DNA of 64,000 nt, taken from contig OZ024757.1 in assembly GCA_964016885.1 (NCBI GenBank), positions 19,592,001 through 19,656,000 on the forward strand. Direction: 5' to 3'. Numbering within the stretch: position 1 is the first letter of the stretch; every line of letters begins with the position of its first letter. The translations under genes and the position numbers were made by a program. This DNA is from Eledone cirrhosa (lineage: Eukaryota). The notes under the pieces were generated by a model, which had not been told where the DNA came from, searched no databases, and saw nothing but the letters and a program-made list of their open reading frames with translations. Of this stretch, positions 11,833 to 14,015 are shown piece after piece.

Positions 11833-11904
11833 TTCCTTTCTGATGAACAACTTCAGACGTCTCTATGAGGTTGCCTGTCTTCGTGAAACCTTTGGTAAAT
11901 GGAA
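11833..11904 (+). ncRNA. Type I hammerhead ribozyme, family H3
   Basis: UUCCUUU-CUGAUGA-AC...GU-GAA-ACC UUU GGU-A-AAUGGAA; internal stem II pairing CAACUUCA/UGAGGUUG; GUA triplet. Confidence 0.75.
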
Positions 11905-11963
11905 TAATTGTATTGTGTTGTTTATTACATAAATATATATCTTTATTTATAAAACAAACTTTG

Positions 11964-12023
11964 TATTTTATCTGATGAAAGCGCACCAAGGTTGGCTTCC
12001 CTTGAAATATATATAATGAAATA
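11964..12023 (+). ncRNA. Type I hammerhead ribozyme, family H4
   Basis: UAUUUUAU-CUGAUGA-AAG...CUU-GAA-AUAUAUAU-A-AUGAAAUA; 8-bp stem I and palindromic stem III. Confidence 0.75.
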
Positions 12024-12427
12024 AAAATGGTTTTATAAATATAGTTTCCATTTATTTAATATCATTGAATATTTACTCCAGTACTTTGTTGAGTGCTCTA
12101 AATCAGTTATAAACATTTATGTTTGTCGGAATTCCAACAAATTAAATACAACTGCTACACACACACACACACATATATATATAACCAAAGATTAGTATGG
12201 TTCGTTAATTACTCAACGAATACAATGTTTTTTATTCATTTATCTATTTATGTATGTATTTATTTATTTATTGCCTTTCTCTTCTTTACTCTTATATCTC
12301 TAATTTGCTCTATGTCTCTCATATTATTTGTGGTATAAAAACGTTGAGATTTGATGAAATAAATCACTGCCAATACTGGAATTGAATAATCAAGACCGTA
12401 GCGGTATGTCATATATCAAATCATATA

Positions 12428-12489
12428 TTTTGTCTGATGAGGACGTACTGAAAAAACAACACAGTACCTTTGAAATATATATAATAAAG
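12428..12489 (+). ncRNA. Type I hammerhead ribozyme, family H2, within a ~360-bp element (12181-12540)
   Basis: UUUUGU-CUGAUGA-GGACGUACUG..CAGUACCUUU-GAA-AUAUAUAU-A-AUAAAG. Confidence 0.75.
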
Positions 12490-12555
12490 TATATATTTTG
12501 ATTATGAGAATATTTTTCATTTAACATTTTGAATAATATATATATATATATATTT

Positions 12556-12727
12556 GAGAAAGTATGACCCCGACGGGAGAGCTCAAGCCGTTTCGACGGC
12601 TATTTCTGGAGTCCAGAAATAGTCGTCGAAACGGGGTCATACTTTCTCTTATTACCCTCTCTACTACCCTAAGTATTGAGGACTCTGGTGCATTATGGTC
12701 CATCTGGTTCCTTACCACAACTCCTCC

Positions 12728-12730
<3 letters not shown>
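12556..12730 (+). mobile_element. Foldback fragment of repeat family X (also 15003-15118, 49112-49257, 55008-55362)
   Basis: Shared CTCTACTACCCTAAGTATTGAG.ACTCTGGTGCATTATGGTCCATCTGGTTC; inverted arms centred near 12610; flanked by (TA)n. Confidence 0.75.
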
Positions 12731-12783
<53 letters not shown>

Positions 12784-12808
12784 TGTAATAAACAACATAA
12801 GGCAATTA

Positions 12809-12870
12809 TTTCATTTACCAGTGGTTTCTTGAAAGCAAACGCAATTTTGCTTTCAATCATCAGAATGAAA
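12809..12870 (-). ncRNA. Type I hammerhead ribozyme, family H3; best-formed copy in the window
   Basis: UUUCAUU-CUGAUGA-UUGAAAGCAAA AUUGCG UUUGCUUUCAA-GAA-ACC ACU GGU-A-AAUGAAA. Perfect 7-bp stem I, 11-bp stem II, 3-bp stem III and an intact core. Confidence 0.9.
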
Positions 12871-13467
12871 AAATCCTGGTATATTTATTGACATTGGATA
12901 TTAAAAAACAAAAATATAATCTATATGAAAGTGAGGCTGGAAAAGGAAGAAGGAAAGGAAAAATAAACACACAGACACACACAATTACATACACACACAT
13001 ATATACATACACATATATATACATACATATACACACACATATATATATACATACATACACATATACATACACGTACAAATACACATACATATACATACAT
13101 ACACACATAACATATCCATTGATACACATACACACAAATATACAAACACACACACACACACACATGTATATATATATATATATATACATACACATAATCA
13201 TATATATATATATACACACGTACATACACACACATACATGCACACATATATACACATACACAAATATAGACATATGTACACACACCTACATACGCACACA
13301 CAATTAATTATAAGAAAAAATATAATAATAAAAATACTGTCACATAAGAATAAAAATAAATGTAAAAATTATTATAAAGTTGACAGCGATACAGGAAACA
13401 AATAAATGAACACATACACATACATACATGAAAATAAATACATACACACACATACGTACATATACAT

Positions 13468-13539
<72 letters not shown>

Positions 13540-13569
13540 AGATCAAAAGATGGTTAAAAGAGTTCCAAG

Positions 13570-13640
13570 TATTTTATTATGCGCATTTTAAAAACAAATA
13601 TCATCATGGGATGATATCTGCGTTTTCATCAGATAAAATA
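13570..13640 (-). ncRNA. Type I hammerhead, family H5; G12A mutant, probably inactive
   Basis: UAUUUUAU-CUGAUGA-AAAC GCAGAUAUCAUC CCAU GAUGAUAUUUGU UUUU-AAA-AUGCGCAU-A-AUAAAAUA; sister fragments at 5991 and 55513 have GAAA. Confidence 0.75.
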
Positions 13641-13717
13641 GGATAGATGATATGAAGCTTAACAAACACTTGTGAATAGTGAAGTTTTAAATCAACATAT
13701 CTACACACACACAAACA

Positions 13718-13779
<62 letters not shown>

Positions 13780-13970
13780 CACACATACATATAAATACAT
13801 ACACACATGTATGTGTGTAAAACTCATTCTTAGATGTATTCATTGAACCTTGTTTAACTCTTAAATATATATATTCTGTCCTACGCACTTTTGTTTCTGT
13901 GTCACACACAGAAACAAAATGGCGTAGGACAGAACAAAGGAGAGGCACAGAAACAAAAAAAGGAATCCCC

Positions 13971-14015
13971 AGTCACTGAAGAGGTCACAGAGTGTGTGAC
14001 GAAAGAACTATGACT
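13971..14015 (+). ncRNA. Minimal type I hammerhead ribozyme, family H6
   Basis: AGUCA-CUGAAGA-G-GUCACA GAGUG UGUGAC-GAA-AG AA CU-A-UGACU; 5-bp stem I, 6-bp stem II, one extra nucleotide after A9. Confidence 0.8.

What the first reader, a model, noticed from the sequence alone, without database searches (positions are those of the whole stretch)
11833..14015. Six hammerheads from five families within 2.2 kb
Seen: H3(+), H4(+), H2(+), H3(-), H5(-) and H6(+), separated by (TA)/(CA) tracts; a second cluster of five lies at 33.3-34.4 kb. Inference: an insertion hotspot where each element's microsatellite flank is the target for the next. If transcribed, either strand would contain self-cleaving motifs.
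Basis: partly seen in the sequence, partly recalled or inferred. Interest (0 to 1): 0.75.

Follow-up and report, generated by a model that had tools for sequence, protein, structure and literature searches.

The report
Stacked Penelope ends in TA repeats
The six ribozyme-like motifs are the cut-short tail ends of six families of Penelope-type jumping genes that likely piled up because they all land in TA repeats, and two of them sit inside a third family that carries its own repeat-rich stretch with relics of earlier insertions, so it likely spreads new landing sites as it moves.

Summary
One (13632-) lacks G12 and one (11840+) has a stem II mismatch. A seventh, truncated hammerhead family (12555-12728) was missed. 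Each motif is the 3' end of a different high-copy Penelope-like element (PLE) family: 5'-truncated, often with an inverted arm and a tail, ending in (TA)n (97 of 102 paralogs). Upstream ORFs place five of the seven families in the Hydra clade.

The cluster is denser than random: 7 events against 0.30 expected. TA-tract density explains much of this (rho 0.70). Re-use of an occupied tract is only about 2-fold enriched, so tens to hundreds of such strings are expected genome-wide.

It is the non-coding region of the 12863- element (12782-15002). H5, H6 and a third repeat are nested in it at sites empty in a paralog. That region also carries relic ends of three other PLE families across many copies.

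The class is known (PLE hammerheads, Hydra TA targeting, plant SaTar arrays), and this scan noted the general system before on other pieces of this genome. The co-mobilised relic array was not found in my seven paper searches. No expression evidence.

The parts
11400..11675 (.). Dispersed repeat (SINE-like, class not tested; starts left of 11400) ending at the first (TA)n tract 11677-11722
   Evidence: several window copies at 87-97%
11725..11828 (-). Inverted 5' arm of the H3(+) insertion: its 3' end plus tail
   Evidence: 57-nt inverted repeat 11772-11828/11886-11942; the same tail follows the sense arm in paralogs L042, L045, L049, L053, L060
11829..11931 (+). H3(+) PLE-type end; core 11840, predicted cleavage after 11897; stem II mismatch in this copy; coding parent not established
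   Evidence: (721 first-look candidates, 40 scored)
11940..12156 (+). H4 Hydra-clade PLE 3' end with tail; core 11972, stem III AUAUAUAU, predicted cleavage after 12015
   Evidence: (1988 candidates, 40 scored, best 93-96%)
12184..12535 (+). H2 Hydra-clade PLE 3' end, preceded by an inverted piece of its tail (12184-12222); core 12434, predicted cleavage after 12483
   Evidence: (2430 candidates, 40 scored, best 94-98%)
12555..12728 (.).
   Evidence: (Hydra-type ORF upstream in L178)
12782..15002 (-). H3(-) element: 5'-truncated copy of a coding Hydra family with a microsatellite-rich non-coding region; hammerhead core 12863, stem III ACC-ACU-GGU, predicted cleavage at 12816; host of the three nested insertions
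   Evidence: colinear with paralog L176 in three blocks; RT and GIY-YIG ORF pieces upstream in L180; 1096 candidates, 40 scored
13537..13703 (-). H5 Hydra PLE end nested in a microsatellite of the H3(-) element; core 13632, G12 lost in this copy
   Evidence: (917 candidates, 97-98%); Hydra-type EN upstream in L071, L074, L077
13815..13866 (+). Relic 'Y': tail piece of another PLE family, fixed inside the H3(-) family's non-coding region
   Evidence: in 24 of 30 paralogs; free copies at TA tracts in L020, L071, L103, L168
13875..14150 (+). H6 PLE end with a short inverted 5' arm, nested in the H3(-) element; core 13976, predicted cleavage after 14010; parent ORF has a CX4CxxC linker (not Hydra-type)
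   Evidence: (161 candidates, best 99-100%)
14191..14778 (.). Repeat R (588 nt, no ORF, TA or TACA flanks, class unknown) nested in the H3(-) element next to H6
   Evidence: absent from L176; other copies at 85-94%
14850..15002 (-). Relic H4-like tail fixed inside the H3(-) family's non-coding region
   Evidence: 84% to the H4 tail over 56 nt; 1100 candidates, the 40 scored at 97-100%
33289..34494 (.). Second cluster: H7 inverted pair, H1, H2-type pair and H4-type end (four events, five cores)

Best explanation
The cluster is a stack of seven 5'-truncated 3' ends of Penelope-like retroelements from different families, each bearing all or part of a type I hammerhead motif, that likely accumulated by independent insertions into (TA)n tracts. 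Shown: each motif belongs to a dispersed family with variable 5' truncation, an optional inverted arm, an optional tail and a TA-flanked 3' end; five families connect upstream to Hydra-type ORFs and one to another PLE type. Shown: five elements (H3+, H4, H2, HP, H3-) abut with only microsatellite between them, while H5, H6 and repeat R interrupt the H3(-) element at sites empty in a paralog. Shown: the H3(-) family carries a microsatellite-rich region with relic ends of three other families in the same order in many copies. Inferred: the GIY-YIG endonuclease nicks TA tracts, reverse transcription starts at one of two internal points downstream of the hammerhead and usually aborts early, and each insertion splits one tract into two, so TA-rich ground keeps collecting ends. 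Inferred: an earlier such stack formed inside an H3(-) master copy, stayed mobile and now exports fresh TA targets. The hammerheads are likely passengers without a function at this locus.
For: Family anatomy. ORFs and Hydra motifs (RWK, DKT, CxCX5C, CxxC, CxH; YRDDG): read against PMC8557442 section 11 and by eye against Hydra-1_Obim in its supplement. TA association: 97 of 102 against 21%; rho 0.70. Empty site: L176 aligns to the window in three blocks that skip 13540-13694 and 13875-14775 (alignment). Other copies carry H5, H6, H4 or HP at other points of the same region: L109, L110, L114/L184 and 6 of 30 copies. Relics: HP half in 22 of 30, Y in 24 of 30, ORF end in 18 of 30 and the hammerhead end in 14 of 30 within 1.5-kb flanks. 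Best paralog identity fits the nesting order: host 97%, H5 98%, H6 99-100%.
Against: Pfam gave no RT or GIY-YIG match on any fragment, so clade calls rest on motifs, tblastn among my own fragments and eye comparison, not on a tree. H3(+) has no firmly linked ORF (one suggestive copy, L045) and could be non-autonomous. The only near-full H3(-) coding copy seen is in four ORF pieces. Target-site duplications cannot be read inside microsatellites, so 'target' versus 'added tail' is not fully separable. The order of the five abutting insertions is not known. Nested events in H3(-) copies (7 in about 30 kb) are only about twice the genome average.
Confidence: 0.85

Rival explanations
1. Strong chain reaction: a tract next to an existing element is a much better target than other TA tracts, so clusters grow by preferential re-insertion.
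For: Double-occupied tracts 10 against 5.0 (P about 0.02); anchors 17 of 97 against 9.3% (P=0.008); 79 other-family events within 1.5 kb of 102 anchors against 40 expected; close pairs in the 100 kb flanking the window 14 against 7.4 (P=0.001).
Against: The effect is about 2-fold and confounded by tract length, regional TA density and relics inside H3(-) copies; no excess of close pairs in 50 spaced samples (7 against 5.0, P=0.22).
Confidence: 0.25
2. The cluster is one composite element (or segmental copy) that moved as a unit.
For: True in part: the H3(-) family is itself a composite that moved with relic ends.
Against: None of 19 H4, 19 H2 or 19 H3(+) paralogs shows the window's neighbours in the window's order; homology stops at the 3' TA tract.
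Confidence: 0.04
3. The cluster works as an RNA-processing element: a read-through transcript would be cut, for instance by a cross-family double hammerhead formed by H4 and H2, which share the AUAUAUAU palindrome and have mutually compatible stems I.
For: All 8+8+8 cross pairs are standard; the constrained dimer fold (-78.1 kcal/mol) beats two monomers (-68.3).
Against: The free MFE is -91.2 and cross-palindrome pairing probability is 0.0002; H5 is dead and H3(+) degraded; PLE minimal hammerheads cleave weakly and one tested needs its protein; no obvious coding exon among window ORFs.
Confidence: 0.08
4. Chance placement at the genome-wide density.
For: With about 410,000 events, about one 2.2-kb bin with six events is expected per genome.
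Against: Seven events here, four more in 1.2 kb at 33.3-34.5 kb, and four strict hits in 1.8 kb within 30 kb upstream (L168), all in 164 kb.
Confidence: 0.02

Closest known systems
Hydra clade of Penelope-like elements, including Hydra-1_Obim (Craig et al. 2021, PMC8557442; passages, sections 11 and 15, supplement look-ups)
   Same: C-terminal GIY-YIG, RWK, DKT, CxCX5C linker, CxxC and CxH motifs, canonical hammerheads, (TA)n insertion, 5' truncation, inverted arm, tail. The H3(-) RT fragments resemble Hydra-1_Obim by eye, and its hammerhead stem III (ACCA-A-UGGU) resembles the H3 stems.
   Different: Hydra elements are described as short (<3 kb). The H3(-) family has about 1.9 kb between ORF end and hammerhead end, with relic ends of three other families. 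Mixed-family stacks are not mentioned in the parts I read. Tails here are about 60-100 nt rather than 30-40.
Minimal type I hammerheads in PLE repeats (Cervera and de la Pena 2014, PMC4209133; parts 1-2 of 4 read)
   Same: Short palindromic helix III, extra nucleotide before stem II, many families per genome, mostly lone truncated copies, inverted pairs 100-700 bp apart, a U3-A8 core variant.
   Different: Scale: 17 strict motifs in 400 kb extrapolate to about 127,000, against about 9,000 in their richest genome (different descriptor and small sample).
SaTar arrays of guayule and rice (Valdes Franco et al. 2018, PMC5907723; abstract and passages)
   Same: Mixed-family linear arrays of unrelated elements joined by (TA)n through microsatellite targeting.
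   Different: SaTars are Mu-like DNA transposons, never nested, about 30% directly linked. These are retroelements, about 18% directly linked among families I could detect, with nesting where one family carries internal microsatellites.
Animal non-LTR retrozymes (10.64898/2026.07.22.740005, passages; PMC7229834, search listing only)
   Same: Short hammerhead-bearing sequences tied to PLE termini.
   Different: Retrozymes are tandem non-coding units of one family. Here the units are single truncated ends of different families, six of seven linked to coding parents.

Membership tests
Type I hammerhead (PLE minimal form) | CUGANGA...GAAA...UH core with stems I and II | tested here: met
   4 of 6 pass the strict descriptor; H3(+) is near; H5 lacks G12 in this copy though its family is intact
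Type I hammerhead (PLE minimal form) | Short self-complementary helix III | tested here: met
   AUAUAUAU, AUGCGCAU, ACCACUGGU, ACCUUUGGU, AGAACU, ACGU across families; the descriptor demanded only part of this pairing
Type I hammerhead (PLE minimal form) | Match to an Rfam hammerhead model | tested here: not met
   long stems II and minimal stems III are a likely reason (inference)
Type I hammerhead (PLE minimal form) | Self-cleavage | not testable with these tools
   needs in vitro assay; only H3(-) and H6 fold near the active shape alone
Penelope-like element | 5' truncation, inverted 5' arm, optional tail | tested here: met
Penelope-like element | RT plus C-terminal GIY-YIG ORF upstream in longer copies | tested here: met
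   RT and EN pieces for H3(-) (L180) and H6 (L183; RT core seen in a relative in L063); EN-side pieces for H2, H4, H5, HP. Motif-level only; Pfam blank
Penelope-like element | Coding parent for H3(+) | tested here: inconclusive
   one copy (L045) with a CxxC..E fragment about 1 kb upstream, not shared with the other 18
Hydra clade | RWK and DKT motifs in RT | tested here: met
   H3(-) parent L180; not reached for H2, H4, H5, HP
Hydra clade | CxCX5C linker; CxxC and CxH around the EN end | tested here: met
   linker in H2, H4, HP and H3(-) parents; CxxC or CxH in H2, HP, H3(-) and an H4 arm; H5 by tblastn to H2/H4 fragments at 49-66%. H6 has CX4CxxC instead, so it is not filed as Hydra
Hydra clade | (TA)n insertion preference | tested here: met
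   97 of 102 paralogs against 21% random
Hydra clade | Phylogenetic placement of RT | not tested
   no reference sequences in the script box; eye comparison only
Neptune or Nematis clade (H6) | CX2-5CxxC linker and CCHH motif, RT phylogeny | tested here: inconclusive
   linker present; clade not resolved
Non-LTR retrozyme | Non-coding tandem units of one family | tested here: not met
   units are single ends of different families with coding parents
SaTar array | Mu-like TIR DNA transposons, never nested | tested here: not met
   retroelement ends; nesting shown. Works like a SaTar array but is not one

The most novel reading that the evidence does not exclude
A coding Hydra family captured a mixed-family insertion stack in its own non-coding region, stayed mobile and has carried microsatellite landing pads plus relic ends of three other families to on the order of a thousand sites, where further PLE families now insert: a feed-forward loop in which microsatellite-targeting retroelements manufacture their own targets and help build this genome's very high microsatellite and hammerhead load. 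A side consequence would be cross-family double hammerheads (H4 with H2) in read-through RNA.
Probability: 0.35. Interest if true: 0.55.

Novelty: new variant of a known kind. Interest (0 to 1): 0.33.

Why it matters
As a locus it is ordinary repeat debris: tens to hundreds of such strings are expected in this genome (31 to 389 runs of five). Its value is as a worked example. It shows with an empty paralog how PLE stacks are built, and it shows that one family moves its own target sites and other families' relics with it, a testable route by which microsatellites and TE clusters could amplify each other. It also warns annotators that long CA/TA tracts here can be parts of elements, and that Rfam misses on the order of 1e5 hammerhead-like motifs.

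Tried and rejected
Rfam at two thresholds: no hammerhead. Pfam on 11 ORF fragments, some repeated: nothing meaningful. H4 and H2 as the two ends of one retrozyme: rejected, paralogs do not link them. HP as a hammerhead-less Naiad end: rejected, C-terminal EN upstream and a U3-A8 type core. Expression: no RNA holder listed. The DNA alignment of hammerheads was not structure-true and one row was mis-placed, so no covariation count was made. The atlas search gave no result. Orthologous empty sites: no relatives held. Supplement file 1 of PMC8557442 was cut when stored and bioRxiv supplements are closed, so listed families or clusters there may have been missed.

Full report
Setting. The window is G000:C18:19592001-19656000 in a 3.0-Gb animal genome. 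It is probably an octopus; this is inference from size, repeat content and likeness of an RT to Hydra-1_Obim. No coding exon was obvious among window ORFs of 100 aa or more.

Observation. All six cores are present. A strict type I descriptor passes 11972+, 12434+, 12863- and 13976+, with essentially no hits in shuffles. 11840+ has a stem II mismatch against its family. 13632- has lost G12, which 14 of 15 other copies keep. The two 'H3' motifs are distinct families. A seventh family, HP, lies at 12555-12728 as two truncated arms; six longer copies show a YUGANWA core, mostly U3-A8, and one folds with a 5-bp stem III. Rfam sees none of them. The second cluster has five cores from four events, three passing the descriptor.

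What the motifs belong to. Searches of the own genome gave 161 to 2430 first-look candidates per family, 40 scored each, with best copies 90-100% identical. Copies are 5'-truncated at varied points, often have an inverted partial arm at the 5' side, end at one of two 3' points (with or without a tail) and run into (TA)n. This is the PLE pattern described in PMC8557442; two RT start points explain the tail in PMC11167929. Longer copies lead into ORFs: GIY-YIG fragments with a CxCX5C linker for H2, H4 and HP; RT with RWK, DKT and YRDDG plus EN for H3(-); EN fragments for H5 in 3 of 15 loci. These are the Hydra-clade marks listed in section 11 of PMC8557442, which also notes (TA)n insertion. H6 links to an ORF with a CX4CxxC linker, so another clade. 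H3(+) has no firm parent. Pfam did not recognise any fragment and no tree was built.

Anatomy of the cluster. Left half, beads on a string: repeat, (TA)n, H3(+) with inverted arm, (TA)4, H4 with tail, (CA)n(TA)n, H2 with an inverted tail piece, (TA)n, HP pair, (TA)n, 3' end of H3(-). No paralog among 19 each of H4, H2 and H3(+) repeats this order. Right half, nesting: paralog L176 aligns to window 15002-14776, 13874-13695 and 13539-12731, so H5, H6 and repeat R sit at points that are plain microsatellite in L176. The long CA/TA tract at 12960-13480 is shared with paralogs and is element sequence, not a spacer.

The H3(-) family. Between ORF end and hammerhead end it has about 1.9 kb of mostly degenerate microsatellite holding, in fixed order, a 3' half of HP, an H4-like tail and a tail piece 'Y'. 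Of 30 copies picked by the H4-like piece alone (one of them L176 itself), 22 have the HP half, 24 have Y, 18 reach the ORF end and 14 the hammerhead end within 1.5 kb. Free copies of HP, H4 and Y-bearing elements exist at TA tracts elsewhere, so these are relics of insertions into a master copy that went on transposing (inference). 6 of the 30 carry further known PLE ends inside this region, as do L109, L110 and L114/L184 among 15 copies picked by the hammerhead end. The window copy is truncated before the HP relic.

Is the clustering more than chance? Forty spaced 10-kb samples gave 17 strict motifs and 55 library events in 400 kb; ten samples from C18 gave 4 and 10; the 100 kb flanking the window gave 12 and 35. 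That extrapolates to about 127,000 motifs and 410,000 events, from a small sample and a library partly seeded from it. Seven events in 2.2 kb against 0.30 expected gives P=4e-8, or 1.6e-5 at the local rate. Several clusters within 164 kb exclude random placement. TA density is the main correlate: rho 0.70 over 60 stretches; the window and its flanks have about 180 tracts per 100 kb against 81 genome-wide; 97 of 102 paralogs end at a tract against 21% of random positions. Re-use of an occupied tract is enriched about 2-fold: 10 of 576 tracts against 5.0 under independence or a splitting simulation (P about 0.02), and 17 of 97 anchors against 9.3% (P=0.008). Against this, the 50 spaced samples show no excess of close pairs (7 against 5.0, P=0.22), though the flanks do (14 against 7.4, P=0.001). 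At these rates 31 to 389 runs of five are expected in the genome, so this cluster is unusual locally but not unique.

Function. H4 and H2 lie on one strand 462 nt apart, share AUAUAUAU and have cross-compatible stems I. A cross-family double hammerhead is geometrically possible and beats two monomers by about 10 kcal/mol, but lies 13 kcal/mol above the free MFE. PLE minimal hammerheads cleaved weakly even as dimers (PMC4209133), and the anole one needed its protein and was dispensable for insertion in vitro (PMC11167929). I judge the motifs passengers here.

Known versus new. Known: PLE hammerheads, Hydra TA targeting in Octopus, and mixed-family microsatellite-linked arrays (plant SaTars, PMC5907723). 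The passages I saw of a recent octopus repeat annotation treat hotspots at 100-kb scale, and the word ribozyme does not occur in its main text (PMC13282606). Earlier notes of this scan report the general system on other pieces of this genome; look-ups by words and by the relic sequence returned nothing. Seven paper searches found no report of a PLE that co-mobilises relic ends and target microsatellites, but the library lacks most subscription papers. Verdict: real, explained, a new variant of a known kind; interest 0.33.

Noticed in passing
window 15003-15120: A second HP head-to-head pair whose partial tail joins the 5' truncation point of the H3(-) element with no TA between them; later deletion or template switch are both possible.
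   Followed up: partly
HP family, many loci: Most HP copies are truncated within the long stem II near the same spot and form perfect fold-backs there, as if reverse transcription stalls or folds back in that stem.
   Followed up: no
window 14191-14778 and 1553-2072; L135, L148, L173, L205, L206: Repeat R: about 590 nt, apparently fixed ends, no ORF, TA or TACA flanks, common in random samples; class unknown.
   Followed up: partly
window 3858-3937, 4449-4568, 5939-6058, 49180-49251, 55465-55569, 62856-62963: Further PLE ends of families H7, H2, H5, HP and H1 outside the two clusters.
   Followed up: partly
L168:7852-9647 and L166:735-1827: Two more hammerhead clusters within 50 kb upstream of the window (4 and 3 strict hits).
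   Followed up: no
L122, L140, L141, L146, L152, L154, L160, L173: At least seven further hammerhead families in 500 kb of samples, several with longer stems III that may work as monomers.
   Followed up: no
L180:3736-5874 (-): Near-full-length Hydra ORF of the H3(-) family, broken into four pieces, inside a head-to-head pair.
   Followed up: partly
window 30962-32899, 5805-7340, 34657-36670, 18490-21950, 15980-16740: Several tandem minisatellite arrays, two giving long chance ORFs of repeated peptides.
   Followed up: no
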